64,000 bases of DNA from the NCBI GenBank assembly GCA_026026165.1, contig JAPEUD010000004.1, positions 186,001 through 250,000 on the forward strand, in the 5' to 3' direction. Positions 15,722 to 33,125 of this stretch are shown one piece after another. The translations under genes were made by a program, and so were the position numbers. The stretch comes from Sarea resinae (taxonomy: Eukaryota). The notes below the pieces were generated by a model that was not told the origin of the DNA, did not search any database, and saw only the letters and a program-made list of their open reading frames with translations. Numbering within the stretch: the stretch's first letter is position 1; every line of letters starts with the position of its first letter.

Positions 15722-17669
15722 TCACAGCTCCGTGCGCACTTCCGGTTGCATGACCAATTGCATAGGATCGGCCTCCTTACCAGGGGCGACCTTCTTCTTC
15801 TTGTACTCATGCAGCGCGGGGCGGGTCGAGGCTAGCTTGGCGGCCATATCTCGGCGGATTGGCTGGTAGGCGTCGAACATGCCGGTGGGATCGTACTCTT
15901 GCTTCAGCCGGAGCAGTCTCTCGATTCGCCACGGCTCATAGCCGTATAGCGACTCCATCGGGTCATAGTAGCCGTGCCCGTAGTTGACGTATTGGTGTAG
16001 TCGCCCATAGCCACTGACTTCCACTAATAGCTGCTGCCAGCTCTTGAGCCAGCGATCAATTTCAGAGCGCAGCGAGAGGTCGGTGTAGGTTCCTTGGACA
16101 ATCCTGGGATGGTTAGAAGGGGAAAAAACCACTATGTTCAACGTTAAAGTGTAATGAATGACTTACATGAAGTGGTTCGAGCTTTTCCGCCAGGGGAAAG
16201 CGGAAGAGTCCGGATCGACCGCTCGCACGGCTTGTGAGGCAAACGTTTGGAACATGAGCAGGAATTTGGCCTTGCCAGCGTGCTTCAAGCTCATCTTCTC
16301 CCAGTCCTGCCAGAGGCTCACCATGGCCGACACGTCATACGTGGCCGTATTCGCGGCGTAGAAGTTACGCTGGCCGCCGGGCTGGGCACACAGGACGTTG
16401 TTGAGGCCCTTGTACGTCTCCCATGGGAGTTGCGCCCAGTCGACGTACACTGCTTTTATGTGCAGCGGTGCGAGGTCGAGCCAAGGTTGGAGATGCTCGG
16501 CGGCAGACTCCTTAGTGCCGTGCCAGACGAAGTTGATGTTGATGACGGGCTGGTGGTAGTTCGTTAGTTGGTGATACGTCTTCAGTTGGCCAAAGGACAT
16601 ATCAACTTACCACACCAGCCTCACCGGGGTTATGTCCAGTGATGAAGAAGGCCAAGTTTGGAGGCAGCTCGTTAGCTTGCACCAGGTTCATTAATTTGAA
16701 GACCTGTTCCGTTCTGCTAATCGGAAACTCCATGTCGACCGAGTAGTGCATGCCGTCATTCGTCTGGGGGAAGACCTGGATCTCGGCTTCAAGCCCGATA
16801 CCAAAGTTGTGTCCCGCGCCGCGCAAAGCCCACCATAGGTCGGGGTTGGTCGCTTCCGAGACCTTCTCGATCGTACCGTTCGCGAAGAGCATCGTGACGG
16901 ACTTGATGTTGTCCATGAACAGACCGTACATGCCTTGCAGACGACCAATTCCGGCGCCTAAGCCGACACCCATGACACCCGTGCAAGGGCATGATCCAAC
17001 GGCTGGGATATATCGTCAGTAGTGGACAGTGTATATCAACCGAGTCGCTGAAAGAACAACGTACTGACTTCGTAACCGTTTGCGTGGGTTACATTAGCTA
17101 GTTCGCCAGTCACGGCACCGCCGCCAACGGTGACGATGTTGGTTTTCTTGTCAACTTTGAAGTAGTTCATTCGCCTCATGCTAATCTGGAGGGCATTCTG
17201 GACGGTCTGCGTTGAGGTGGTCAGACCATGGCCTCCTGACTGGGCTAGGAAAGGCATGTCCTTGGACCGAGCATAGTCCACCTAGAAACAAGTTAATTGT
17301 CACAAGATAGTTGATACGAGAGGATTGACTCAGGTAAATTGAGGCGAGTCAATTGTCTCCAAGGGGGGCCATTCAAGAGCAGTCGAGAAGACCTACAGCA
17401 TGTTTGACATCGTCCATCGAAGCAACCGCAACCGCCACACTGAACGTAGGACGGTCGTAGTCGCTGTAACGTGTTACCAGTTCATCGTAGAGAGGCTCCC
17501 CTGGGAAAGCTATTGAGGCTTCCGGGGACAATAGCGGGCCCAGGACTTCCTTTGCATCGGCAGCAATGTCACTGGGAGTCCACACGTTGCCTCCAAACTT
17601 GTTCAGGGCAGAAACATTGCTGGGACCAAGGCAAATGGCCAAAAGAGCAAAAAAAAGGAAAGAAAACAT
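15722..17669 (-). CDS. Secreted FAD-linked oxidoreductase, berberine-bridge-enzyme/VAO-PCMH family; about 5 exons
   Basis: Signal-peptide-like N-terminus MFSFLFFALLAICLGPSNVSA. Motifs AQSGGHG, VGSCPCTGVMGVGLGAGIGRLQGMYGL, DLWWALRGAGHNFGI and C-terminal BBE motif YVNYGHG...LYG...RLLRLKQEYDPTGMF. Confidence 0.9.
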
Positions 17670-18101
17670 GATGCAAGATGTTCGCTGCTGAGAGCTTGGG
17701 AGTTCTTGTGAAGGAGAGTCTGTAAGATCGGGATCTATTCATATAGTCGCCTCCGCCCACCGTTCACTGCTCACGAACCGAAGCAAGTCAAGCGCACGGC
17801 CTATGATATCCGATCGATCGCATAGACGGATCCACGAGTAAAGTCTGTCGGTGAGATATCAGGGGATCAACAGTGCGGATCCCCAAATCTCGTTCGATAT
17901 GACCTACGGGATCTTCGTCCTCGTTGGAAGGAGATTCCTATCACGGTCTCGACCTCGCTGCTCTTAACTGTTCTTGATCCCATCCCCTCGATACCGCCTC
18001 GAGATCGCGAACGAAAAGAGGGGTAAGAAGCATGAACACCCCAACACCCCTCCCAGCCTCGCAGTGACAGTAGCCGCGATAAGCCGAGAAACGCCAAATA
18101 T

Positions 18102-18108
18102 GCAGCAT

Positions 18109-18141
<33 letters not shown>

Positions 18142-18167
18142 CAGCAGCAGCAGCAGCAGCAGCAGCA
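18102..18167 (+). repeat. Compound trinucleotide microsatellite (CAG)n(TAG)n(CAG)n
   Basis: Seen directly; it generates the spurious poly-Ala and poly-Leu ORFs in the track. Confidence 0.9.
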
Positions 18168-19649
18168 CAGATGGACAGAATGCCGTTGGCATGCTGCGGG
18201 TACGAACACAGGTCATCCACCCTAGCTCTTTTGTGGGGTCGTGAGGAAATCGGACGCAGATTCGGACGCCTACATACTGCTAGTATGTTCTGCTCTTCTG
18301 GGCCGTCCGACTCCACTTGGAAGACAGGATAGACGCCCGACAGGTAGGTGAGGATTCCGGAGGAGGAGTAAGGTACGAATACTGGAGTAGGGAGCTGGAA
18401 TCCATGAGGTTCCAGTGGTTGAGATGTCACGGAAGCAAGCGGACCGTTCCCTTAGCGTCCAGCCATGACTGACATGCTCCGACAACCTTGACGCCGCTCG
18501 ACGATGTTATCAACGGTCGAATGCCAATGCCGTTCTAGTCGGGTCGGCTGGATTGGCTCATTTGGCCCAGCCGTGCCACGACGAATGTCGAGGGTTTACG
18601 TGTTGCCGCGCATGCACGACGGTTCAGGGGGCGGGTCCCACCACACAGGTACTTCGTATCTAGTGCTTTGTAGCCATACCCCATAACGCACATACTATCT
18701 ACTTCTTGGGATTCTTCTACCTACCGCTACACCACCTCCTCCGGCGTACACCCGTCCAGACGCCTATCACTCCGCCACTAGCCAGCAGAGGTCAGTGCCC
18801 CACGCGCACATGCGCGGTGCGCTTCGACCGGCGTTGGCGCTCATTGCTCGAGAGCAATGGTGCTGCAACGCCGGCATCATCGATGGCTCCATCGTCTTTG
18901 GCTGCACAGACCAAAATGTGCACAAGCGTGAGGAGCCTGCTGGTGGCACAGAGTCTTCCAATTTGGGAACAGACCCCGCGCCATGGTCCGCACCCAGGTC
19001 CGTATGCTGATGGTCCGCGGTATTGGGATTTCGCGTCTCGGTACGAACCGAGTCAAATGGCGAAGACGGCGGATTGGCGTGCCGACAGGAGAAAAAAGAA
19101 GAAGACGACGAAGACGACGCGCTCGAACTGCATTGTCGGGATGGGATCGCGACCCACCTCGTGTAGGTAAGAAGTACTCAATTGGGACAATGGGAGAGTG
19201 GAAGAACCGGAGGGGCCAATGCGCCCCCGGGCGAGAGTGAAGAGATAAAAGGCAATGGAAAGCGAAGGGCAGGACGATTGAGGATGGACTGAACCCATCT
19301 CGTAATACTGATGGTACCAAGGGCCAATGGGCCGTCAATCCAGGGCAAGGGTCGGTCGAGAAGTCAAGGCTGCGTCTGACGGCCGCCTCGGGTTTGCGTG
19401 TTTGCATCTGCAAGTCCACATTGGGGGCGATTCTGCATCAAATCATTTGATCCAGCTGAGGTATCTGGTGCATATGGTGGTGGCCCCGGCAATTTCTCAT
19501 ATTCCTAGTATTCCTAGTCTTTCTAGTTGACGTCGAATTGAGATAGGATTTGCGTTGTCCGGCGGCATTGTTGCCATGTTATCGTCTGTCTGCAGATCGC
19601 CGCGATCAACATGGACCGAAAAGGGAGTCACCGTTCACAGGCGTGGTGA

Positions 19650-19723
19650 CGGTGATGGTGCTGGTGCTGGTGCTGGCCATGGTAGTGATTATGATTATGA
19701 TGATGATGATGGTGATGATGATG
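19650..19723 (+). repeat. Degenerate GGT/GAT trinucleotide low-complexity tract
   Basis: ggtgatggtgctggtgctgg...gatgatgatgatggtgatgatgatg. Confidence 0.8.
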
Positions 19724-19940
19724 CCTTGCATTCCATTTCCAGTAGCGCGTGGCTTGTCGGCTTCCTTTACGTATCGTATCTATCGACCATGGGTAGGCTT
19801 TCACTGGACCGGCGGAAGAGTTCGGTCCTGTGAGGTCAGCGATAATCGGGCTTGGAATCCAATATGGTTATCTGTTCACCTTACCTACCTAGTGAACAAA
19901 TCGTGGCTTCCTGACTCTGTCTATATCTTCCTCTTTTATC

Positions 19941-19969
19941 TTTTCCCTTTTCCCTTTTCCCTTTTCCCC
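19941..19969 (+). repeat. (TTTTCCC)4 tandem repeat in a polypyrimidine tract upstream of the PKS
   Basis: Seen directly, about 70 nt before the PKS ATG. Confidence 0.9.
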
Positions 19970-20035
19970 TTTCTCTTTTCTCTATTCTCTTCTTGCTTAT
20001 GCTCGCTCCATTGATTCTGCTGCTTCAACTCAGCT

Positions 20036-23000
20036 ATGGCTACGACTGAACGCCTTGACGGGCAAGCCAAAATGTTCAATGGATTCGTCCCGGAGCCCGG
20101 CCAGCCCATGTTGGCCGAGCCAATTGCCATTGTGGGCATGGGTCCGTTCATCCTCCGTTTCCCACAGCAGTCTCTATGATGCCCTCGATACTGACGCATA
20201 CTTGAGTCGCTAGGTTGTCGATGGCCTGGCTCAGCCGTGAACCCGTCTGCCTTCTGGGATATGTTGAGTGAGAAACGCTCTGCTCACTCAGACTTTCCCT
20301 CGAATCGATTTAACATCGATGCCTTCTATCACCCTAATCGTGAAAGACCGGGAAGCCTCACGACAAAGGGTGGCTACTTTATCCAAGAGGATCCCCGACT
20401 CTTTGATCCAGCTTTCTTTGGCATAAATCCCCGAGAAGCCGCGACGTTAGATCCCGCTCAGCGAAAGATACTGGAGGTCGTCTATGAAGCCCTCGAATCT
20501 GCTGGTGCTACCCTTGAATCTATCTCTGGATCATCTACCGGCTGCTTCATGGGCAACTTCAATCATGACCATCTGTTCTCGCAGATCAAGGACTCTGAAT
20601 ATACCCAGCCATACACTGCTACGAGTGCAATTGCACCCTTCTTGTCCAATCGTATCAGCTATGTTTTTAATTTGACAGGGCCAAGGTATGAGCCCAGTAC
20701 CTTACTTTGATACTGAGGAGACTGACGACTGTGCCCAGTTTGACTGTCGACACCGCTTGTTCTGCTTCTTTATATGCCTTGCATCTTGCTTGTTCTTCTC
20801 TGCAGTCTGGCGAATCAGCTGCAGCGATCGTTGGTGCTTCAAATCTCATATTGACTCCGGATATGCAGATGTTTTTGGATAAATTAGGAGCCCTCTCACC
20901 TACGTCTCAATGCCATACCTTTGAGTCGTCAGCCGATGGTTATGGACGTGCGGACGGGTTCGGGGTATTCTATCTAAAGAGACTCTCTGATGCCGTTAGA
21001 GATAGAGACCCTATCCGCTCCGTTATTCGAGCAACTGCCGTGAATGCGTATGCTTCTATGGATTGTCAGTTTTTTTTGTGCGAGCCTACTAATCGTTTGA
21101 CAGGAATGGCAAGAATTCAGGTATAACCCACCCGAGCCCATCAGCACAAGAAGCTGCAATGCGCTTGGCATATGCTCGAGCAGGAAACATCAACCCTGAC
21201 ATGACTGGGTACTACGAGTGTCATGGGACCGGTACACCTGTGGGCGACCCCTTAGAATTATCCGGCATATCGAAAGTCTTCTCAAGTGGCCGAACTCTCG
21301 AAAAGCCACTCCTAATTGGCTCTGTAAGTGGGATCTGTAATTCTGTCGCTTTAACATATCTGACACGAGTGCAGGTCAAGACCAATCTGGGTCACTCGGA
21401 AGCCTCTAGTGGTCTAGCTGGCCTGATGAAAGCTGTCCTTGCCATTGAGAAGGGAGTGATCCCGCCTTCAGTTGGTGCGGAGAACTTGAACCCAAAGAGT
21501 TTGTTAATGACCACACCGTGTGAAATTCGAACTAATCAATTTTCAGTTGACTTTGAGAACAACATGTTTCACATTGTGAAAGAAAATTCCGCGTGGCCTC
21601 CTCATATCCCGTTCCGTCGTGCAAGTGTTGCATCTTCAGGATTTGGTGGAGCCAACGCTCATGTGATCGTTGAAGGTGTTGAGAGCTTCGTTCCCAATTA
21701 TGGCCACGGAAACCGACTGCCTGCATTGTCAGCTAAATCTGACCAGCCTGACTGCTGTAAGGGTGACCAGCAATATCTGTTGCCGTTCTCCGCACATGAC
21801 CGCCTATCTCTGGCCGAGAACATCGAAGCTCTGAGATCAGTCGCTAGTCAATACAGCATCTTAGATCTGTCCTACACTCTGGGTATGCGAAGATCGAAGT
21901 TTCTTCACAGAGCCTTTGCGGTGTCAGATCAGCAAAATCTGTCCTCAAGTCTGGATCAGAACAGTGTGACGAACGCAAGCGCAGTGGTAACGGACCCTCC
22001 TAGTCTAGGGTTCATCTTCACAGGTGGGTACCATGACTTCAGTCTGTATTGTAGTCATCCGCATGTTGCCTTCTACCATAAGCCTCCTTAGCCTCTTCAG
22101 AAAATCCTCTATGCCCCCTGGCAGATACTGACAATGCTTTAGGCCAAGGTGCTCAATGGGCTGGAATGGGCAAAGAGCTTTTACAGAGATTTCCAGTCTT
22201 CAAAAAAACCCTAGAGATTCTAGACAGAGTTCTTCGACTGCTCGATGACCCTCCTCAATGGAAGTTTGAAGATATCTTGCTTGCTCCTCCAGAGACTAGC
22301 ACGGTCAATATCCCGGAAATCTCGCAACCAATTTGCACAGCACTTCAGATTGGTCTGGTTGAGTTGCTGGCATCTTGGGGGATAAAACCTGTGGCGACCA
22401 TGGGCCACTCTTCTGGTGAGTCAGTGTGTTGACCCTTACTTTTAAATTTGAAACTGATTGCCTCTAGGTGAGCTGGGAGCAGCATACTCAGCAGGTATAA
22501 TTACTGGCGAAGAAGCTATTGTTGCTGCCTATTATCGAGGAAAGCTTGTTGAGGAAGTCACCATAAAGGGCTCCATGGCCGCTATTGGCCTAGGAAGAGA
22601 AGATGTGAAAGCCTATCTAGAAGATCATAAGGATTCTGTCACCATTGCAGCCGTCAACTCACCTCAGAGTGTAACACTCAGTGGCGATCCCGACGCAGTT
22701 CAATTGCTGACACAGAAGCTGACAGCCGAGGGAATCTTCGCGCGGCAATTGCATACGGGCGGCAAAGCTTACCATTCATTCCACATGAAGGAGATCTCGG
22801 GTTCATACGAGTCCGTGACATCGGAGGGCCTCAAACGTGTTGTCCAAGAGCCACCGCTGTTGCGACGCCCACTGGTCACCTTTTACTCCTCTGTTCTGGG
22901 CAAGAGATTTCAGGGGTCTGGTCTAGATGCAACTTATTGGCGCGAGAACCTTGAAAGCCCAGTTTTGTTCACTGATGCCTTGGATGAATTGGTTACCAAT

Positions 23001-26000
23001 CAGGAGCTGCCTGTTGATATGCTTGTTGAGATCGGCCCTCACTCTGCGCTTGCTGGCCCTATTCGACAATTAGAGGCGAAGCACCGTTCAGAAGGATCTG
23101 GGTTTCCGGCTTATGCATCGTGCTTGTCCCGTAGAAAGAATGCAGAGACTACGGTTCTTCAGCTTGCAGGAGCACTCTTCACACGATGTGTGCCGCTCAA
23201 CTTTGAAGAAATCAACGCTACTATCGATACCGAGACGGGAGACGCCATCCAAGGCATGGCAATTCCCGACTTGCCCACTTACCGCTTCCAGCACAAGACT
23301 ATATCGTTCTACGAGAATCGGATCGATAAAGAATATAGGCAGAGGAAGTTCCCTCGTCATGACATCCTCGGCTCAAGGCTTCCCGGTTGCTCACCGCGCT
23401 CTCCTGTCTGGCGCAATATATTAAGAGTTCAAGATGTGCCTTGGTTCGAAGATTGTAAAGTAAGCATCATTTTCTGTTGGTTTTCGTGGTAGACGCTAAA
23501 CGATCATCTGTCTCCTAGGTCCTGGGATCTGTAACGCTTTCGCCGGCTTGTTTCATCGCCATGGCAATTGAGGCAGTCACACAGCTTCATACTCAGAAGC
23601 AGGATGCCAGAGCCGTTCTCGGAATTCATTTAGCTACCGTTACATTTGAAGACGCTCTTATCCTGGATAGTTCTGAAGGCGTGGACGTCGTTACACATCT
23701 CCAGGAGCAGAGCATTGGGCTGCCTAGTGTGTCCCATGCTTTTGAAATTGTGTCCGTCCAAGAAGAAAAGGCCGTGCTCCACTGCCATGGGTTTGTCACG
23801 GTAGAAGAGACTAAAGATGGTGAGCGGCATCTCCATTACAATTGCTTGAGCTTTGTGTTGACTTTCCGGGGCTAGTTTTGGCAAGCTCCATGGCTTTTGA
23901 GGCTCCAAGGGCGCTTGCATCGACTGCTTGGTACAATCGATTTGCGAGTCTAGGCCTTGAATATGGGCCAGCTTTCCAAGCATTGGCGGACTTAAGTACA
24001 AATCCTATTGAAGGCGAAGCCTCCGCCAAATTACCCCTTCTCCCAAGGACTGGACGGCCATGCGGAGAGTCTCTCTATAATGTTCATCCTACGGTGATAG
24101 ACGCCTGTGTCCAACTAGGTCTTATTGCAGCTAAAGGTGGCGAGCCACGAAATGTGCATAACCTCGTTAGACCTGTCACGATGTCTCGACTTTTCATTCG
24201 AGGGAGTAATGTATCTCCGTCTGATGATGCATTTGCGTCAGCAATGGCTTGGGGAGAGCGGGAGGAATCTGGTACTCTGACAGCACGAATACAGTTGCTG
24301 GGAGCCACAGGCGAAGTCATCATGGATATTGGAAGTGTCGTTGCAGAGCCTGTCAAAAGCTCAAAGCGGATGAGCTCCATGAACGACATACCATTTACGC
24401 AGGCTGTTTGGAAACCCGATTTCACCAAGCTAAAGTTAGAGCAGGCACGCTCTATGTTCCCGCCACCAATTTTCGAAGCCGCAGAGCTTTTCAGGAAAAC
24501 TGAACAAGCTGCCATCACAATGTTGATTCAGTTCTTCACCGAAATATCCACGAAGATTGATCCCACAAAACTCGATATCGGCCTTGGCAGATTTTGGAAT
24601 TGGATCCATAGGACCGTCGAGCGAGCTGATGCAGGTGAAATTCCCTTTGGAAGAGAGGCCTTCTCTTTAGATGCTTCAAAACGTGAAGCTTTGATCGAGC
24701 GCTTGTGCGCAGAGACAGAGCCACTGTCGATAGAAGCTAAGCTTCTCAAGCGCATGTATGATAACTTGGAACCAATTTTCCAAGGGGAAGCCTCTGCTCA
24801 CGAAGTTCTCATGCGAGACCAACTTCTGCCAAAACTTTACACCAACTCTTCTACAGCATCTGGATCAATGACTCAGCTACGTCGAGTCATTGACCTGATC
24901 GGTCACAAGTCACCAGAGTCAGCGTATCTTGAGATTGGAGGAGGCACTGGTGGGGCAACACGAGAAATTTTGGACACACTTGGCGGAAAGAACCTTGTCC
25001 GTCGGTACGGAAGCTATACTTTCACAGATGTTTCGAGCTATTTCTTGAGCGGTGCTAGGGAAGAATTCAAGGAGTATGATGGGTTGAAATATGCCACTGT
25101 GGATATTGAACGCGATGTTGAGGAGCAAGGCTTTGCGAAGGCCTCCTATGACGTTGTAATAGCTGCCAATGTAAGTTTCTGTTCAATAGCAAGAGGCACC
25201 GCTAATAATAAACAGGTGCTCCATGCAACAACCACAATGAAGGAAACCCTAATCCATGTCAGATCTCTTCTTAAACCCGGTGGAAAGCTTGTGCTTATAG
25301 AAACCACAATCGAGACTGTCTGGTTGGCCATAGTACTGGTAGGAAGTCATGCTGTGCGGTATTGGGTCTTGACTAACAACTGCTATAGGGAGGATTCAGC
25401 GACTATTGGAAGGGAACAAACGATGGCCGGGCAAGCTCGCCATTCATGATAGTCGAGAAGTGGAAGAATTTGCTCCTTGAAACAGGGTTTACTCAGCCTG
25501 AAATCAACCTGGATGACTATATGGAGCCGTCCCGTACCATGAATGTATTGGTATCAACTGCTGTCGAGATTGATCTGCATGTGAATGGTCATGTCGACTC
25601 GAAAGATGATACACTAGTGCTGGTGAGTATTCATCAATATAAGAGCGATCTGGCACTAACATAGAAACTCAGGTCTATCGTTCTCAACCCACGCCTATAG
25701 CGAAGGTGATTGAGAAGTATGCCAATGAAAAAGGGATTCCCACGTGCCTAGTACCTCTATCGGCTTGTACTACGCCGCCAAAGAGGGCAATTATCCTGGC
25801 TGAGCTAGAGGGGTCTTTTCTCTCTAGTATGACAGAAGACGAATATTGCAATCTGCAACGTCTTTCTCAAAGCGCCGAGTCAATCGTTTGGGTTACTTCC
25901 GCCGATTTACTCGCAGAGCACATTCCGGACCCCATCACCATCTCGGGACTTGCAAAAGCCGTCAAGGCTCAGAATCCTTCAATCGCGTTCAGTGTATTCG

Positions 26001-28755
26001 AAGTTGATCCTGATAGTTCCCTCGACCAAGAAGCCGCGGAACAGGTCATCGATGAGGTCCTGTGCCTTGAAATCGATTCAGAGGCTGAAATTGCGACTCG
26101 CAATGGCGTGCTCCATATCAAGAGGATCCTCCCGTTTATTGGACAATATCAGCTCGATACTAGCAAACCTGAGTTTAGCACAGAGCTAACGGAAATAACG
26201 TCTAAGAACTCTCAAGGAGTGTTAGATCTTGGCCCTGATGAGGTCGATGTAGAACTCAAGACCGTTGGGCTGTGCTCCGAAAAAGACATGGATCAGTCAT
26301 TCAGACTTTCTCTGTCAGGAGAGTGTACTGGCACTATTATCCGGACTGGCGAGAATGTGTCAAGCCTGAAGGAGGGGGATAAGGTTTTTGCTCTATCGCC
26401 TAGCCGGTGGGGGCCTCGAGCCAAATTCCAGCAGCAATCACTGCAGCTTCTCGAAGCCGAAGAGACTCTAGAGGTATGGTTGTTACGATGCTTTTTGTTG
26501 AGGCACAGCTAATCGCCTACCGTTGGCAGAAAATGACCACGCTCCCTTTGGCCTATTGCTCGGCTCTATACCTGATCAAACATGTTGCAAGGTTGTCGGA
26601 AGGTGATGTACGTATAGCATTATTGGTCTCTCTTCTTTGCTGACATCTGTTGCAGAATCTCTTCATACATGCGCTGCCAGAGGAGCTTCTTCTTCCCATG
26701 ACCTTAATTGCTAAGCGCAAGGGGGCGAGGGTAAGAATCGTGTTTCTGTTATCTTCAGTCACGCCTTAACTAAATTGTTTTAGGTTTTCGTGTCTTCATC
26801 GATTAAGCTTATCGAGAAGGAAGATTTAGCAGAACATCTCAATGTTGCTTCCGAAGACATTCTGTCTCTCGGCGAGCCTTCGTTCGTGAAGGAAGCTCTA
26901 CGGCTGACACAGAAAAACGGATTCGACATCATAATATCATCAGAGTCCGAAAATTGGACCGATGCGCTCTCTGATGTCGTTGCTCAGCTAGGTTTGGTCG
27001 TACGCATCGCTGAAAAAACAAAGAAGCCTAGCGAACTGTGGAACCGGCCCGAAGATCGGAACTTGGCTCTGGTCACTCTGGATATGCCTTTGCTTATCGC
27101 TAAGAAGCCAAAGATCTTTTCAAGGTGTGTACAGATGTCCCTTTAGATTCACCGTATTTCTGGCGTTTGGCTAATGGTATCTGGTATCGAAGCTTGCTTT
27201 CAGAAGTCTTTTCCATGTACCGTGAAGGCTCATTGATGATTCCGGAGCCGACTTCATCCCTGCACGTCTCTGCTTTAGGGGATATCAATGAGGCCTGGGA
27301 ATCGGGGAAGAAAGTACTTCGTCTGGACGACGAGCACTTCAACAGCCTCGTAACTGCTTCTCTGTTCTATTTGAAATCTTCGGAGCATTCTGACATTCGA
27401 GCACAGGACCTTCCAACATTTTCAGAAATAAGATGTCACTCCGAAAAATGCTACGTACTCCTTCATTGCCTCGAGACCTCATTCGGCAGAGGAACGGCCC
27501 TTTATCTGGCAGAGAAAGGTGCAAGGGACATCCTGTTTATCTCTGATCCGTCAGCGATCTCACTATTGGCATCAAGCGTCGAGAAGTATCTCACCACACT
27601 GTCTGCCCTCGGAGTCAACGTCTCTTTAATCGAGAGCATGCAGACGGAAGAGGTCGACCTTAAGTGTCTTCTAGAGCGGTGCGAGAAGGGTGTTGGGGGT
27701 GTCATCCAGGGTTCTCCTGTTCTTGAGGTGAATATCTTGCCCCCTGTTTGGCAGAAACGAATACTTACGGCAAACGAACGCAGGATGCATCTTTCACCGC
27801 CCTCTCAAATGCGCAGTTCCAAGGACAAATCCAAATGCAACTTCACGAATTAGACCTCCTCTATACACTCCTAAAACAGACACCCCAACAGCCCCAATTC
27901 GTCATCCTTCTCGGCCGCACCGACTCCCTCATAGGCACTACCACAAACAGGACGCTGGATCCCATCCTCGATAGCATCCGCGAGTCCACCGCTCAAAAGT
28001 GGAACGCCGAAGAGGGGCTGAATACGCGTTTTGTGGCTCTGGGATCGGTTTCTGACCCCGTCGCAAGCTCAGGGGCCGGAATTAATTCCCCCCACGGTGA
28101 AGTGGACCAGGAGAGGGAAATGACGGCGGAGGAGTACATCTCGCCAGAGATGAGGGAGGAATTCATTAGTCTCCTGCCTCGCATAATCGGTTCCCAACCC
28201 TCGAAGCCAAACGCAGAATTCGGAGCGACGACCGTCACACCCCAGACAACGCTGTATATGGGACTAGACCCCACAAGGCCCAACTTTCCAGCGCTGGCCT
28301 CCCTATCCCCAACGACTGCGGAGACGAATACGCCAACGACACCAGTACCCAATCTTCGCGCGCTCAGCACCCTCCACCTCGCCTTCCACACCCACCAAAC
28401 CAGCTCCCATGCCGCCTCGTCTACCAACGCCACCGGAAACACCTCGGCCTCCCTCATCGACACTCTCGCATCCTTGGACAGATCTTCGCCCCAATACGCA
28501 GAACTAGCCACCAGCGCGATAACAGAACAGCTTGCGACGCTGCTTTTTGTGGCGCCCGAGGCCATCAGCCCGAAAAAAGCCCTCGCCGCTTACGGCCTCG
28601 ATAGCATGATCGCGGCGCTATTCCGTGGGTTTCTGAGGCAGACTTTTGGCCTGGCAATTGGCATGACAGAGTTGTTGGGTGAGGAGTGCTCTATTGAGGG
28701 GTTGGTGGGTTCTATTAGGGAGGGTGGGGAGGGCGAAGAGGGTAAGGGGCAGTAA
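20036..28755 (+). CDS. Iterative type I polyketide synthase with HR-PKS architecture KS-AT-DH(0)-cMT-ER(0)-KR(0)-ACP, no release domain; many introns
   Basis: KS: EPIAIVGMG, TVDTACSAS, ECHGTGT, KTNLGHSE. AT: FTGQGAQW, GHSSGE, AYHS. DH: HDILGS..., HPTVIDACVQ. cMT: YLEIGGGTGG, ANVLHAT. ER- and KR-homologous segments follow, then ACP YGLDSM and TAA at 28755. Confidence 0.95.
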
Positions 28756-28842: not shown

Positions 28843-28957
28843 CTCTTTTTCCTTTCCCTCTTCTTTCCTTTTTCCTCACCTTTCCCTTTTCCTCTCCTTT
28901 TTCGTCTCTTTCTCCCTTTTCCCTTTTCCCTTTTCCCTTTTCCCTTTTCTCTTTCCT
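28843..28957 (+). repeat. Polypyrimidine tract including (CCCTTTT)5 downstream of the PKS
   Basis: Seen directly; CCC runs at 28914, 28921, 28928, 28935 and 28942. Confidence 0.9.
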
Positions 28958-29339
28958 TAAGTCTTCCTCCTTCCTTTGTTCCACGCTCTACGATTTACAC
29001 GTATCAACAGATCGATCACTATGACTCATGAATCTCTCTCTCTCTGTTAGAAGTTTTATTTGATTTACAAGCTTGTTCAATTTAATCAATCTACCGATCG
29101 ATCTTAAACATTGAAGCTCCTGAAAATTGGAAACCTAGAAGCTAAGATGCTTCTATTCGAGAGCACAGAACAAGCTACTCTCATTTCTTTCGTCCTGTCC
29201 GGACTATCTGTCATCGCCATGATGCTCATACGCCTGACCCGTTACGGACAAAGATGTTTATCATCGAGCGTCTCAAACGATTCGGAGCGTCGAGACTATT
29301 CTGTACGCACAGTGACCCCCCCCAAAACATTTTCTCTCT

Positions 29340-31056
29340 CTACAACAACTCCTCCCACTCCCGCCTCGGCACGACCTTCTCATGCACCCCTCTCGCCCCG
29401 CCTCCATCCACCTTCTCCGTCCCCCTCGCATCTTTCCACCCCCACACCTCATCCAGCTCCGCCCCTAGACTCTCGCCCCGCAGTACTTTCGCCACGTACG
29501 CGCCCCAGATGGGCAGGAACTTGTAGCTGTGGAACGAGCCGCCGATGGCCAGATACAGGTTCTGGAGATGGCCGGACGGGTGCGAGCTGAGCAGTGGGTG
29601 TTGGGTGGGAGTGATGGAATCCCTTTTTGTTTGCGCGAGGCGGGGTGCGGGGCGTGTCAGTCAGGTAGTTGGACAGACGGATGTTTTGGATTTGGTTGAT
29701 TCATCAGAGGTAGGGAGGGGCGAGGGGTGCAGGTGCATGCAGTGGATAGGGGTGGGGTGGAGGGAATGACGAGCAGGTTGATCGGATGTGCAGAACGAAA
29801 TCATAAAGAAGGGGAATGGAAAGGGGGAGGAGGGGTTCAACAATACTAAAACATCACTCACCAGCAACACCGCCAATATGCAACCTCCTTCCCTCCCCCT
29901 AGGACCTGCGGCACGTATCTGCGTACCATTTCCAGCGTCTCAGTTTTCAGTTTCTGCGGGACGAAAGACTGGTCGTGCTGGAGAGGCGGCGAGGAGATGG
30001 TGTGTTGGGTGCGTGTGGAATAGTGGTTCGTGAAGGAGGTGGCGTTTGTTAGTTTGAGGTATTCCTGGCCCGGAGGATGGGGCGGGAGCATCTCGCCTTC
30101 ATTTGCCGTTGCGGCTAGCTGTCAGCTGGCTTTGTTGAGGGAAATGAATACACAGAGGACGGACTGAGAAGTGAAGACTGAGGAATTGCGAGATGGGGAT
30201 ATGGACGGATCGCAGAAAAAAGGCAGAGAAGGGACACACCATCTTCCCCAAATACGACCACAGGCAGTGCTCCAAACTTCCTCTTCTCCTCCTCGTCCAG
30301 CGAGAAATGCGCCACGCATACCCCGGCGGCTGTGGCCTGACTCTCGACCCTCTCATGCTCCCCAAGAGCCAATTCATCCTCCAAGGGAGCTAACAACGCA
30401 CTCGTCCATGCGCCCGTGGCCAGCAGGACCTTAGACGCCGTGTACACCTCGCCCTCGACCGTGCGGACGCCCTGCACGCCCCCCTCGCCTCCCGGGATCA
30501 CCTCCGCCACTTCGCCGACAGCGTAGCGTACCCCGCGCTCAACCGCAGCCCGCATCATGGCGGCGTCGGCATCCGCGGCGTCAGCCCACCCGGCAGACGG
30601 GTTCGCATAGGCGGAGTCGAAGCCGTCGAGCTGGGCGCGGGCGAGCACACCGTCGCCGAGGTCCTGCTTGACGGCTTCAAGGGGCATGTCGCTCGTGGGA
30701 TCCTCTTTACCGCTTTCTCTGAAGTTGGTGCGGATCCGGCTGGCGAGGTCGCTGTTTTTCTTGTTGAGCATGACCCAGCCAGTGCGGTGGTAGAAGGGCT
30801 GGAGCTTCGGGTAGGTCGACCAGGCAGCGATGGCGGACGAGGCCAGAGACATGTAGAGTGGTGAGGTGTAGTCTGCGCGGATGATCTTGTTCAGGTCTGT
30901 TGATGCTGCTGCCGGAGAGGGAAAGGGGGCACGGTCGAGAATTGTGATCGTGGTTGTTGGCGAAGGGGGAGAGAGAGAGAGGTGGTACGCTGTTGAGATG
31001 CCCATGACGCCGGCGCCGACGATGAGGATGTCCGAGTGACTTGTATCTGGAGCCAT
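29340..31056 (-). CDS. FAD-dependent amine oxidase, sarcosine oxidase / fructosyl-amino-acid oxidase / pipecolate oxidase family; 3 exons
   Basis: DILIVGAGVMGISTAYHL (GxGxxG), AASTDLNKIIRADY, VLLATGAWT, YWRCCW|DSITP (family flavinylation Cys region) and LYLAIGGSFHSYKFLP. Introns at about 30239-30098 and 29860-29623; TAG at 29340. Confidence 0.88.
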
Positions 31057-32063: not shown

Positions 32064-33125
32064 TCACAGATGCTTGTGGAAAAAGTCCAGCAGCGTCTTG
32101 TAACCGCGCTCATACTCTTCCTTGACACGGGAGCTTTCGAGGTTGGAACTATATTGCATCAATTAGAATTGTACGTAGTTTACAATAAGCCTTAAGAGCA
32201 GGTGAAACATTTGCACAAACAACCTAAAGCGGTAGCTGGCAGGGAAAGGAAACTCACCGAGCGCCCATCCAGCCGTGGATCTGGTCGCCGAAAGTCTCGA
32301 CGTGATGGGGGACCTTTAGGTTGTCCTTGAATTTCTGGACGGCGTCGGGATCTTCGTCTTTGGATGCGAGCATTGCCACGGGAATTGTGAAGGCGGCCGC
32401 ATCATTTGGGTCTACCATTGCCGGATGGCACTCCGCCGCCGCTTTGAAGAGAGTGCCAGACTGGTTGGCCAGAGAGACGACCTATTTCATGTACAGATCA
32501 GTGCTGCCCCCCAAGGGTACTGTAATCGTTATTGTTACAACAATGCAAGCTCACCTTGCCACCCCAGCAAAATCCCACGATGCCCCAATTCTCAATCTCG
32601 GGATGCTGTCTCTGCAGGTCCTTGACCAGCCCAGGGATGCGTCCGGCAGCCTTTGGCGGCGCGGCAGTGGTCTGGAAAAAGGCCTGGAGCTTCTCGCCCT
32701 TCTCCTTGGTGTCTGGTGGATACCACGAAATATCTGCGGGAGAGCCTTCGAAGAAATCGGGTATGAATACTTGGTATTGATGCTCCTTGTCCGAGTGAGC
32801 GAGGATGTCGGCGCCTTGGAGCGTTTGTGGGAAATATCCGAAGATGTCGGGGATGAAGAAGATGGCTTGCTTTGCGGTTGACGGACCGGTGGCGTCTGTT
32901 ACAGGAAAGGTAAGTGGTGTGGGGCTTTGAGGGTGTGGAGGTTGGGAATTAGGAGGTGCGTACAGGTCTTCAGACCATCAGCAGTGATGTAGGTGCCCTT
33001 GGGCTCGTAGCCCTTGCTGACCACGGGCGGGATGGTGCAGCATGCTAATCCATCTAGTCAGTATGAGATCGTTCATCCGCAACAGCAATGGGCTGCGCAA
33101 CGATACCTTTGCTGTGTTGAGACAT
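32064..33125 (-). CDS. Dienelactone hydrolase family alpha/beta hydrolase (multi-exon; not called as one ORF in the track)
   Basis: Spliced minus-strand translation: MSQHSK|ACCTIPPVVSKGYEPKG, DIFGYFPQTLQGADIL, nucleophile elbow GIVGFCWGGK, ECHPAMVDP, LASKDE, HGWMGAR, YERGYKTLLDFFHKHL*. Confidence 0.88.

What the first reader, a model, noticed from the sequence alone, without database searches (positions are those of the whole stretch)
20036..28755. HR-type PKS with all three reductive domains apparently dead but KS, AT, C-methyltransferase and ACP intact
Seen: the exons I could splice are open over 8.7 kb. KS (DTACS/HGTGT/GHSE), AT (GHSSG/AYHS), cMT (EIGGGTGG; NVLHAT His) and ACP (GLDS) are canonical, whereas DH, ER and KR each lack their essential motifs (next three findings). 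Established: inactive ER alone is common (LovB/LovC type), but fungal HR-PKSs normally keep an active KR, and true non-reducing PKSs use a different SAT-KS-AT-PT-ACP scaffold. Inference: this enzyme has converged on non-reducing chemistry from a reducing scaffold. It would make an unreduced C-methylated poly-beta-keto chain (e.g. a methylated 4-hydroxy-2-pyrone released by lactonisation, as there is no TE/R domain) or depend on trans-acting reductases. Damage confined to the reductive motifs without frameshifts argues against simple pseudogenisation.
Basis: partly seen in the sequence, partly recalled or inferred. Interest (0 to 1): 0.85.

Follow-up and report, generated by a model that had tools for sequence, protein, structure and literature searches.

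The report
Reducing-type fungal PKS with dead reductases
An intact fungal polyketide synthase gene built like a "highly reducing" enzyme has lost the chemistry of all three of its reducing domains but keeps them as scaffold, so it probably makes an unreduced, methylated polyketide such as a small pyrone.

Summary
Window 20072-28755 (+) is an intact 18-exon gene. It encodes exactly the 2563-aa protein P0001, which a source names a Sarea resinae hypothetical protein. Domain order is KS-AT-DH-cMT-psiKR-ER-KR-ACP.

- **Intact:** KS Cys/His/His, AT Ser, cMT Gly-motif/His/Glu and ACP Ser.
- **Lost:** the DH catalytic His is Cys (Asp kept). The ER Gly motif reads PEEL. The KR has no Gly motif and no Lys, Ser, Tyr or Asn.

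It is not a pseudogene. The Xylona heveae orthologue (59% identical, a different fungal class) carries the same losses, including His to Cys. All 17 splice junctions align to it. Identity is KS 87% and cMT 80%, but ER 45% and KR 40%. The KR region has no sequence match among solved structures, yet still models as a KR Rossmann fold.

A signal-peptide BBE-like flavin oxidase is transcribed divergently next to the PKS and has a 73%-identical Xylona orthologue. No trans-reductase gene lies nearby.

Most likely product, inferred and not shown: a C-methylated poly-beta-keto chain that releases itself as a pyrone.

The design is rare but has precedents: the PKS part of CpaS, and a second dead lineage (Apiospora). 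I rate it a new variant of a known kind.

The parts
20072..28755 (+). PKS gene. 18 exons: 20072-20141, 20214-20685, 20739-21047, 21104-21323, 21375-21498, 21547-22023, 22143-22415, 22468-23459, 23519-23819, 23876-25170, 25216-25338, 25389-25622, 25673-26473, 26530-26607, 26656-26730, 26784-27124, 27193-27727, 27784-28755. An alternative in-frame ATG lies at 20036.
   Evidence: The spliced translation equals P0001 exactly (2563 aa). All 17 introns are GT-AG. The upstream ATG was seen.
20117..21476 (+). KS domain (aa 16-391), Cys188/His324/His364 intact
   Evidence: Pfam PF00109 255 bits and PF02801 117 bits. Motifs. 87% identical to Xylona.
22011..23132 (+). AT domain (aa 554-870), GHSSG Ser647 intact
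   Evidence: Pfam PF00698 195 bits. Motifs. 68% identical to Xylona.
23358..24357 (+). DH-like double-hotdog domain (aa 946-1240). The catalytic His is replaced by Cys978; Asp1155 and Gln1159 are kept.
   Evidence: Pfam PF21089 44 bits and PF14765 88 bits. The alignment to PsoA and MAS puts Cys at the His site. The same Cys is present in Xylona.
23454..23456 (+). Codon TGT = Cys978 at the DH catalytic His position, two codons before the donor site of intron 8
   Evidence: Xylona has the same D-C-K.
24838..25532 (+). C-methyltransferase domain (aa 1401-1600). Gly motif, His1514 and Glu1540 are intact.
   Evidence: Pfam PF08242 73 bits. Motifs. 80% identical to Xylona, second only to KS.
25700..26152 (+). 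Structural psiKR subdomain (aa ~1640-1790)
   Evidence: Pfam PF23114 29.8 bits.
26153..27322 (+). ER-like domain remnant (aa 1791-2105). The nucleotide-binding Gly motif is replaced by PEEL (26677-26688).
   Evidence: Only ADH_N at 19.8 bits, below its cut-off, and no ADH_zinc_N hit. Motif columns. 45% identical to Xylona.
27425..28053 (+). KR-like domain (aa ~2140-2330). The Gly motif reads HCLETSFG (27464-27487). The Lys, Ser, Tyr and Asn sites are M2258, R2285, D2299 and D2303.
   Evidence: Pfam KR 31 bits against 197 in P0003. Residue states. 0 solved-structure sequence hits. The AlphaFold model keeps the Rossmann fold and best matches the human FAS KR.
28516..28689 (+). ACP (aa 2485-2542) with Ser2514 in GLDS. 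No domain follows it.
   Evidence: Pfam PF00550 30.6 bits. Motif and C-terminus.
15722..17669 (-). Neighbouring BBE-like (VAO/PCMH) FAD-linked oxidase gene, 5 exons, with an N-terminal signal-peptide-like leader. It is transcribed divergently from the PKS, with 2.4 kb between the two start codons.
   Evidence: P0184 (548 aa, locus tag adjacent to the PKS's) maps exactly. Pfam PF01565 88 bits and BBE. The Xylona orthologue P0185 is 73% identical over 520 aa and lies on a contig of the same length as the Xylona PKS.

Best explanation
**What it is.** This is a functional, long-conserved iterative type I PKS descended from the fungal highly reducing (HR) lineage. Only KS, AT, C-methyltransferase and ACP still do chemistry. 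The DH, ER and KR domains have lost catalysis and, for ER and KR, their cofactor motifs. They are kept under weaker purifying selection as the structural core that holds cMT and ACP in place.

**How it most likely works (inferred).**
1. The enzyme condenses acetyl and malonyl units and C-methylates the beta-ketoacyl intermediates.
2. It never reduces them.
3. With no TE or R domain, the short methylated poly-beta-keto chain leaves the ACP by self-lactonisation. The product would be a 4-hydroxy-2-pyrone of the methyl-triacetic-acid-lactone type.
4. The co-conserved, signal-peptide-bearing BBE-like flavin oxidase next door is the likely tailoring enzyme.

**Shown versus inferred.**
- Shown here: gene integrity, residue states, orthologue conservation, fold retention, gene neighbourhood.
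- Inferred: enzyme activity, product, chain length, and the oxidase's substrate.
For: **Gene integrity**
- The 18-exon CDS is exact, with 17 GT-AG introns.
- All 17 junction windows (+/-12 aa) align with the Xylona orthologue. Relative indels occur in 2 of 17 windows, one residue each, and neither is at a junction.

**Active sites**
- KS, AT, cMT and ACP are intact. DH His is Cys, the ER Gly motif is lost, and the KR Gly motif and its Lys, Tyr and Asn sites are lost in both Sarea and Xylona. The Ser site is Arg in Sarea but still Ser in Xylona.

**Selection pattern, Sarea versus Xylona**
- KS 87%, cMT 80%, AT 68%, DH 56%, ACP 49%, ER 45%, KR 40%.
- The KR/KS ratio is 0.46, against 0.70-0.77 in four canonical pairs measured in the same call.
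- So ER and KR are relaxed but far from neutral between two classes of fungi.

**KR fold**
- The AlphaFold2 model has pLDDT 75-97 in all but two of the 10-residue blocks covering residues 41-230 (63 and 51 in those two), with Rossmann-type beta-alpha-beta order.
- Best Foldseek matches are the human FAS KR (TM 0.66, rmsd 2.7 over 198 columns), the PsoA KR and FabG.
- Sequence search finds nothing among solved structures.

**Phylogeny**
- Sarea and Xylona group together (99), then with Arachnomyces P0004 (99-100). P0004 has DH His to Thr and Asp to Glu. It has no ER hit and only an 8-bit KR remnant.
- This group stands beside a large clade of relatives in which every member checked motif by motif keeps the KR catalytic residues.

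**Neighbourhood**
- There is no SDR, MDR, P450, O-MT, transcription factor or transporter among the 142 ORFs of >=50 aa in the two flanks. Only the BBE-like oxidase, a DAO-type flavoprotein and a DLH hydrolase have Pfam hits.
- The oxidase orthologue in Xylona is 73% identical and lies on a contig of the same length as the Xylona PKS.

**Chemical logic from papers**
- FAS without NADPH, or reduced to KS-MAT-ACP, makes triacetic acid lactone. The authors suggest that release is spontaneous and needs no TE (PMC12856111, abstract and passages).
- Per a review, Sol1 lacks a release domain and pyrone formation drives release. Its partner Sol5 is an oxidase with a secretion signal, predicted to use a covalently bound flavin, which acts on a pyrone (PMC11686517, passages).
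- The CpaS PKS part works with KS, AT and ACP only, and its DH, MT, ER and KR are non-functional (PMC3202784, passages).
Against: - There is no expression or splicing evidence. No RNA run holds the locus, so transcription and the 17 introns rest on comparison alone.
- No product is known for this gene or for any clade member. No paper on them was found.
- Adjacency of the PKS and the oxidase in Xylona is not shown. Only equal contig length is known, which has roughly a 1 in 9 chance if that scaffold is about 2.7 Mb of a roughly 24 Mb genome.
- The family is very small: Sarea, Xylona and the truncated Arachnomyces form. Conservation therefore rests on few sequences.
- Xylona keeps a Ser at the KR Ser site and scores 67 bits on Pfam KR. 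Residual non-canonical function cannot be excluded by sequence.
- A conserved Cys at the DH His site could mean that this domain is not merely dead.
- Chain length and methylation pattern cannot be predicted.
Confidence: 0.6

Rival explanations
1. The synthase still makes a reduced polyketide, because free-standing reductases encoded elsewhere act in trans. This would be like LovC for LovB, extended to a trans-KR.
For: Trans-ER partners are established for ER-dead HR-PKSs (LovB/LovC; recalled, not checked here). The DH-like domain is well conserved (56%; Pfam 88 bits). This might mean that it still handles substrates.
Against: None of the 142 flank ORFs of >=50 aa matches an SDR or MDR family. 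The only weak SDR-like ORF in the window lies 33 kb away, beyond housekeeping genes. I know of no precedent for a trans-acting KR serving a fungal HR-PKS (recalled). Without the DH His, a reduced beta-hydroxy chain could not be dehydrated either.
Confidence: 0.08
2. The gene is a decaying relic or young pseudogene with no function. The open frame is a product of gene prediction threading introns around lesions.
For: There is no RNA evidence. The 17 introns include five whose length is a multiple of three. The ER and KR regions are strongly diverged.
Against: - The same architecture and the same substitutions occur in Xylona heveae, a different class.
- All junctions align without indels at the junction.
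- KS is 87% and cMT 80% identical, with every catalytic residue kept.
- Even the dead ER and KR keep 40-45% identity and a confident Rossmann model.
Confidence: 0.06
3. The DH-like domain has been re-purposed rather than killed. Its conserved Cys978-Asp1155 pair would act as a product-template-like cyclase, or as an acyl-transfer or release site. The product would then be a specifically folded (aromatic or otherwise cyclised) methylated polyketide, not a spontaneous pyrone.
For: - Cys occupies the His site in both Sarea and Xylona, while several neighbouring residues differ.
- Asp, Gln and the GYGP-type substrate motif are kept.
- DH is better conserved than ER or KR (56% against 45% and 40%).
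- PT domains of NR-PKSs share the double-hotdog fold (established knowledge).
Against: - Arachnomyces, the next relative, has Thr at this site and Glu for the Asp. The Cys is therefore not a clade-wide requirement.
- His to Tyr replacements occur in other relatives: 5 of 243 sequences aligned at this site. His to Tyr to Cys is a path of single transitions.
- I know of no Cys-dependent double-hotdog enzyme (recalled).
Confidence: 0.1
4. The enzyme makes only a very short unit, for example 2-methylacetoacetyl. It hands this to another enzyme instead of releasing a pyrone, as the PKS part of CpaS hands acetoacetyl to its NRPS module.
For: CpaS shows that an HR-type module with dead DH, MT, ER and KR works as a diketide maker (PMC3202784, passages). 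There is no release domain here. A DLH-family hydrolase and a DAO-type flavoprotein lie 0.6-4 kb downstream.
Against: No NRPS, condensation, acyltransferase or second PKS gene lies in the 64-kb window. The protein ends right after the ACP. It is not shown that DLH and DAO are co-conserved with the PKS.
Confidence: 0.12

Closest known systems
PKS portion of cyclopiazonate synthetase CpaS/CpaA (Aspergillus flavus/oryzae PKS-NRPS)
   Same: It has a fungal HR-type domain set in which DH, ER and KR are present but lack critical residues. Only KS, AT and ACP work, and the chain stays unreduced (PMC3202784, passages).
   Different: CpaS is fused to an NRPS module that takes and releases the product. 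Its methyltransferase is dead too, and it makes only a diketide. Here the PKS stands alone and ends after the ACP. Its cMT is intact and is the second most conserved domain.
LovB / LNKS-type and Sol1 (prosolanapyrone synthase) HR-PKSs
   Same: Same architecture and a related KS clade: relatives that sources name 'lovastatin nonaketide synthase' and 'prosolanapyrone synthase' fall in the sister clade. Their ER Gly motif is degenerate. Sol1 has no release domain and releases by pyrone formation. It is partnered by a signal-peptide flavin oxidase, Sol5 (PMC11686517, passages).
   Different: Those enzymes keep an active KR and DH and make partly reduced chains.
Animal FAS run without NADPH, KR-knockout FAS, and the minimal KS-MAT-ACP 'nrFAS'
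   Same: A megasynthase of the same fold family that, once beta-keto reduction is absent, makes triacetic acid lactone and releases it spontaneously without a TE (PMC12856111, abstract and passages). The KR-like model here best matches the human FAS KR.
   Different: Those are laboratory conditions or engineered proteins, and they lack an active C-methyltransferase. Here the state is natural and conserved between fungal classes.
Fungal NR-PKS pyrone synthases of meroterpenoid pathways (SpyA, Cle1, SubA/DpfgA)
   Same: They make small unreduced pyrones. SpyA, which has no TE, is thought to release triacetic acid lactone by spontaneous lactonisation (PMC10583710, passages; PMC7156458, passages).
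   Different: Those are SAT-KS-AT-PT-ACP enzymes of the non-reducing lineage, sitting in clusters with a prenyltransferase, a GGPP synthase and a terpene cyclase. Here KS starts at residue 16, so there is no SAT. The scaffold is HR-type, and no terpenoid genes are in the window.
Inactive KR0/DH0 domains of bacterial modular PKSs and the catalytically silent DH-like branching (B) domain of rhizoxin synthase
   Different: Those are single-use modules in assembly lines, not an iterative fungal enzyme in which the entire reductive loop is silent.

Membership tests
Fungal iterative highly reducing PKS (HR-PKS) | Single polypeptide with the domain order KS-AT-DH-(cMT)-(ER)-KR-ACP | tested here: met
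   Pfam hits in this order on P0001 and on the exon ORFs.
Fungal iterative highly reducing PKS (HR-PKS) | KS-AT region groups with fungal reducing PKSs | tested here: met
   In the trees of 36 and 39 KS-AT regions, the Sarea/Xylona pair falls among HR-PKS relatives, beside the clade holding proteins that sources name LNKS and prosolanapyrone synthase.
Fungal iterative highly reducing PKS (HR-PKS) | Catalytically competent KR (Gly-rich NADPH motif; Lys, Ser, Tyr, Asn) | tested here: not met
   No Gly motif, and M/Q, R, D, D at the four sites. In the survey, 157 of 162 relatives with a full-length KR alignment have the Tyr. The KR region has 0 sequence hits among solved structures.
Fungal iterative highly reducing PKS (HR-PKS) | DH with the His-Asp catalytic dyad | tested here: not met
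   His is replaced by Cys978 and Asp is kept. In the survey, 221 of 243 aligned relatives have His.
Fungal iterative highly reducing PKS (HR-PKS) | Makes a reduced polyketide using NADPH | not testable with these tools
   This needs an enzyme assay or heterologous expression.
Fungal non-reducing PKS (NR-PKS) | N-terminal SAT domain, PT domain, and usually TE/CLC or R, with KS in the NR clade | tested here: not met
   KS begins at residue 16, leaving no room for a SAT. The protein ends after the ACP. Its nearest relatives are all HR-type.
LovB-type HR-PKS with dead ER plus a trans-ER partner | Dead ER in cis and an MDR-family enoyl reductase gene in the cluster | tested here: not met
   The dead ER is met. 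No MDR or SDR gene is among the 142 flank ORFs or the 63 larger ORFs of the window, apart from a weak SDR-like ORF at 61.6 kb.
CpaS-like non-reducing HR-type PKS module | HR-type module with non-functional DH, ER and KR that still condenses | tested here: inconclusive
   The residue states match the description in PMC3202784. However, condensing activity is untested, there is no NRPS module, and no CpaS sequence was available for comparison.
Pseudogene | Frameshifts, premature stops, loss of splice sites, or neutral divergence | tested here: not met
   The CDS is open and exact with 17 GT-AG introns. The orthologue is conserved. dN/dS could not be computed because no Xylona DNA was available.

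The most novel reading that the evidence does not exclude
Fungi have evolved, at least twice, a second architecture for non-reducing polyketide synthesis by silencing the whole reductive loop of an HR-PKS while keeping C-methylation.

In the Sarea/Xylona lineage the double-hotdog domain, with its conserved Cys-Asp pair, would have taken on a new role. It could act as a product-template-like cyclase or as a covalent acyl-transfer or release site.

The neighbouring flavin oxidase, whose FAD domain resembles those of EncM and SorD, would work directly on the reactive methylated poly-beta-keto or pyrone product. Together they would give a scaffold not made by classical NR-PKSs.
Probability: 0.1. 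Interest if true: 0.85.

Novelty: new variant of a known kind. Interest (0 to 1): 0.52.

Why it matters
**Programming of HR-PKSs.** How fungal HR-PKSs decide when to reduce is a long-standing open problem. This is a natural enzyme in which the decision is fixed at "never", while KS, AT, cMT and ACP and the whole scaffold remain. It offers a clean system to study three things without interference from reduction:
- chain-length control
- methylation control
- the structural role of the KR/ER core

**Genome mining.** Automatic annotation labels this gene a highly reducing PKS, and the predicted product class would be wrong.

**Prior knowledge.** The one precedent I could document is CpaS, a diketide-making module inside a PKS-NRPS. 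A stand-alone, methylating version is conserved between fungal classes, and a second independent dead lineage exists. This suggests a recurrent and overlooked route to small methylated pyrone-type metabolites.

**Testability.** The two-gene locus (PKS plus flavin oxidase) is small enough for direct heterologous expression.

Tried and rejected
- **RNA evidence.** The look-up of sequencing runs listed no RNA holder. The only holder is a DNA run that may be the source of the window. No reads were laid.
- **Whole genome.** None is held for this window.
- **Synteny in other fungi.**
  - A metagenome scan with the oxidase alignment A3 gave 19 loci. The four with 56-58% identity matched over only about 34 residues, and none of the four had a PKS match. 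No orthologous locus was found.
  - The Xylona genome could not be fetched, so PKS-oxidase adjacency there is untested.
- **Meroterpenoid or diterpenoid-pyrone cluster idea.** Rejected. No prenyltransferase, GGPP synthase or terpene cyclase is in the window, and the known pyrone PKSs of those pathways are NR-type.
- **Hidden-motif idea** (canonical residues lost through mis-splicing). Rejected. The KR and ER motif sites lie inside exons. The DH Cys codon lies inside exon 8, and Xylona shares it.
- **Literature searches.**
  - Searches for an HR-type fungal PKS with an inactive KR and for PKS work on Xylona or Sarea found no paper on this clade or on a stand-alone case. The library holds open-access papers only.
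  - Two look-ups of the LovB reconstitution paper failed because it is not held. The LovB pyrone shunt products are therefore not cited.
  - Supplements were not consulted.
- **Earlier findings of this scan.** Nothing was returned.
- **dN/dS per domain.** Not computable, because no orthologue DNA was available. Per-domain protein identity was used instead.
- **Not used.** Complex prediction, read laying and the protein atlas.

Full report
**1. What is at the coordinates**

Stop-to-stop ORFs on the + strand between 20.0 and 28.8 kb carry, in order, these Pfam matches:
- KS, AT, DH and methyltransferase
- the HR-PKS psiKR fold
- a weak ADH_N match
- a sub-threshold KR match
- PP-binding

A search with the largest exon found P0001. 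This is a 2563-aa protein that a source names 'MAG: hypothetical protein M1819_004095 [Sarea resinae]'. P0001 maps letter for letter onto the window as 18 exons (20072-28752, stop to 28755). The 17 introns are 45-119 nt long and all are GT-AG. The spliced 7692-nt CDS translates exactly to P0001.

**2. State of each domain**

I aligned P0001 with its Xylona heveae orthologue P0002 and canonical relatives (A1 and A2).

Intact:
- KS Cys188, His324 and His364
- AT Ser647
- cMT Gly motif, His1514 and Glu1540
- ACP Ser2514

Lost or changed:
- **DH.** The His of HxxxGxxxxP is Cys978 (TGT, 23454-23456). Alignment to two synthases with solved structures, PsoA and mycocerosic acid synthase, puts the Cys opposite their His. 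It also shows that the HPxxxDxxxQ Asp and Gln are kept.
- **ER.** The nucleotide-binding GGLG/GGVG motif reads PEEL. Pfam finds no ADH_zinc_N domain.
- **KR.**
  - The Gly-rich motif reads HCLETSFG and has an extra residue.
  - The Ser-Arg after strand 2 reads Ser-Asp. I recall, but did not check, that this Arg binds the NADPH 2'-phosphate.
  - The Lys, Ser, Tyr and Asn sites are Met/Gln, Arg, Asp and Asp.

The decay is domain-wide:
- Pfam KR scores 31 bits in P0001, 67 in Xylona and 197 in the lichen-fungus relative P0003.
- The 246-residue KR region finds no solved-structure sequence at E<=10.
- The same region of P0003 finds 51 at E<=1e-5.

**3. Is it a live gene?**

No RNA run is available. 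The argument is therefore comparative.

- Xylona heveae belongs to the class Xylonomycetes and Sarea to the class Sareomycetes. Xylona has an orthologue that is 59% identical overall.
  - At the DH His site it has the same Cys.
  - Its ER motif reads DEDI.
  - Its KR Gly motif reads GCLESHLG, and its Lys, Tyr and Asn sites are Gln, Asn and Asp.
- All 17 splice-junction windows align with it. Relative indels occur in 2 of 17 windows, one residue each, and none sits at a junction.
- Per-domain identity is KS 87, cMT 80, AT 68, DH 56, ACP 49, ER 45, KR 40 and psiKR 36%.
- In four canonical pairs the KR/KS ratio is 0.70-0.77. Here it is 0.46.

So ER and KR evolve faster than in working enzymes, but they are far from free drift. 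An AlphaFold2 model of the KR region, built with the 26-row alignment A4, is confident over residues 41-230 apart from one short loop. It has Rossmann strand-helix order. Its best Foldseek matches are the KR of human FAS (TM 0.66, rmsd 2.7 A), the PsoA KR and FabG-type reductases. The fold is kept and the chemistry is gone.

**4. How wide is the family?**

- A word-indexed search on the ER-KR part found only P0002 as a close relative (37%, E 1e-147). The next hit is 23% (E 5e-30), among 65 hits at E<=1e-10.
- An exhaustive HMMER search of 1.84 billion representatives with the DH-cMT exon gave P0002 at 64%. It then dropped to 41% or less, except for one 379-aa fragment at 49%.
- In KS-AT trees, Sarea and Xylona pair (99). 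They then join Arachnomyces sp. P0004 (99-100; class Eurotiomycetes).
  - P0004 is a 2047-aa protein with DH His to Thr and Asp to Glu.
  - Its ER is gone and only an 8-bit KR remnant is left.
  - It sits on a long branch, so its place is less sure.

- 157 of 162 with a full-length KR alignment keep the catalytic Tyr.
- 221 of 243 keep the DH His.
- Of the 137 with the DH-N, DH-C and KR regions all detected, the DH His is replaced in five: P0001, P0002, P0070, P0128 and P0231.

P0070 (Apiospora hydei) and P0231 form a separate pair, nested inside the clade that holds the LNKS-named and prosolanapyrone-named proteins. Their DH, ER and KR are all degenerate, while their KS, AT, cMT and ACP motifs are intact. 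The same outcome has therefore arisen at least twice.

**5. Surroundings**

Upstream, on the - strand (17669-15722, five exons), lies a BBE-like FAD-linked oxidase, P0184. Its locus tag is adjacent to that of the PKS, and by eye it has a signal-peptide-like N-terminus. It is transcribed divergently from the PKS, with 2.4 kb between the two start codons.

Its best solved relatives by sequence are:
- a fungal oligosaccharide-oxidase-like protein (5k8e)
- EncM, over the FAD-binding half only
- SorD

Xylona has an orthologue that is 73% identical over 520 residues. It lies on a contig of the same length (2,708,766) as the Xylona PKS. That is suggestive, but it is not proof of adjacency.

Downstream lie a DAO-type flavoprotein (- strand, about 31056-29343) and a dienelactone-hydrolase-family gene (- strand, 32977-32257).

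Everything else with a Pfam hit is housekeeping:
- KDEL receptor
- eRF1
- NIPA
- V-ATPase E
- P4-ATPase
- SEN1
- MRS2

Of the 142 ORFs of >=50 aa in the two flanks, only five have Pfam hits. They belong to the oxidase, DAO and DLH genes. None matches an SDR, MDR, P450, O-methyltransferase, regulator or transporter family.

**6. Mechanism**

Shown here: a conserved, open gene with competent condensing, loading, methylating and carrier functions, no competent reductive function, no release domain, and no nearby trans-reductase.

Inferred: iterative condensation with C-methylation of beta-ketoacyl-ACP, no reduction, and release by lactonisation to a methylated 4-hydroxy-2-pyrone. Oxidation by the neighbouring flavoenzyme would follow.

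The inference leans on documented behaviour of relatives:
- Animal FAS forms triacetic acid lactone when NADPH is absent. A KS-MAT-ACP 'nrFAS' does the same. The authors take pyrone formation without a TE to mean that release is spontaneous (PMC12856111, abstract and passages).
- Per a review, Sol1 has no release domain and pyrone formation drives release. Its partner Sol5 is an oxidase with a secretion signal, predicted to use a covalently bound flavin, and it acts on the pyrone (PMC11686517, passages).

Chain length and methylation pattern cannot be predicted from sequence.

**7. Comparison with what is known**

The closest documented precedent is the PKS part of CpaS. Its DH, MT, ER and KR 'lack critical amino acids', and KS, AT and ACP make acetoacetyl (PMC3202784, passages).

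The present enzyme differs in four ways:
- it stands alone
- it keeps a strongly conserved cMT
- it has no downstream module to take the product
- it is paired with a flavin oxidase

It fails two defining features of a working HR-PKS: a competent KR and the DH dyad. It is not an NR-PKS either, since it has no SAT, its scaffold is HR-type, and its relatives are HR-type. The known small-pyrone synthases of meroterpenoid pathways are NR-type.

Searches of the open-access library found no paper on a stand-alone HR-type PKS with the whole reductive loop silent, and none on this clade. Subscription literature and supplements were not covered.

**8. Verdict**

Its chemistry remains a well-founded inference.
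- The case is a new variant of a known kind rather than a new principle, because of CpaS and the second dead lineage.
- It is a good, cheap target for heterologous expression.

Noticed in passing
window 19907-20002 and 28883-28978: Runs of the heptamer CCCTTTT (4-5 units) in the same orientation flank the PKS gene. One lies about 100 nt upstream of the ATG and one about 130-220 nt downstream of the stop. The repeat finder groups them as one family. They could be chance microsatellites, regulatory tracts or marks of the unit's borders.
   Followed up: partly
window ~19630-19870 and ~17940-18330: The PKS-oxidase intergenic region holds simple-sequence tracts. One reads as poly-His on one strand and as Asp/Tyr/Gly-rich on the other. 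A second is a GC-rich triplet tract that reads as poly-Ala/Thr/Leu. No Pfam hit was found in this 2.4-kb region.
   Followed up: no
P0070 (Apiospora hydei, 2500 aa) and P0231 (2279 aa, unnamed): A second, phylogenetically separate pair of HR-type PKSs. DH has His to Tyr and Asp to Glu, ER and KR are degenerate, and the KS, AT, cMT and ACP motifs are intact. The pair is nested in the clade that holds the proteins named LNKS and prosolanapyrone synthase.
   Followed up: partly
P0004 (Arachnomyces sp. PD_36, 2047 aa): Nearest relative of the Sarea/Xylona pair. DH has His to Thr and Asp to Glu, the cMT motif I has a Gly to Arg change, the ER is missing, and only an 8-bit KR remnant is left. Its annotated KS carries a 19-residue insertion next to the active-site Cys that looks like an unremoved intron.
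   Followed up: partly
session proteins such as P0062 (source name 'Polyketide synthase-like protein Preu9'), P0046, P0059, P0068, P0124, P0128: Several HR-type relatives of about 2000-2330 aa match only the first half of the KR model (positions 1 to about 90). These may be truncated PKS-like proteins lacking the catalytic half of the KR, or they may be cut gene models.
   Followed up: no
window ~29343-31056 (-) and 32257-32977 (-): A DAO-type FAD oxidoreductase (Pfam PF01266, 97 bits) and a dienelactone-hydrolase-family gene (PF01738, 31 bits) lie 0.6-4 kb downstream of the PKS. Whether they belong to the same pathway, for example as a hydrolytic release step, is unknown.
   Followed up: partly
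window 21324-21374, 21499-21546, 25171-25215, 26608-26655, 20142-20213: Five of the 17 introns have lengths that are multiples of three. At least three of them (51, 48 and 45 nt) contain no in-frame stop, so retaining them would only insert 15-17 residues. Removing them is supported by gap-free alignment to the homologues.
   Followed up: yes
P0186-P0189 (unnamed assemblies): Four further proteins or fragments are 57-59% identical overall to the BBE-like oxidase. Their genomic context could not be read, so it is unknown whether a dead-reductase PKS sits beside them.
   Followed up: no
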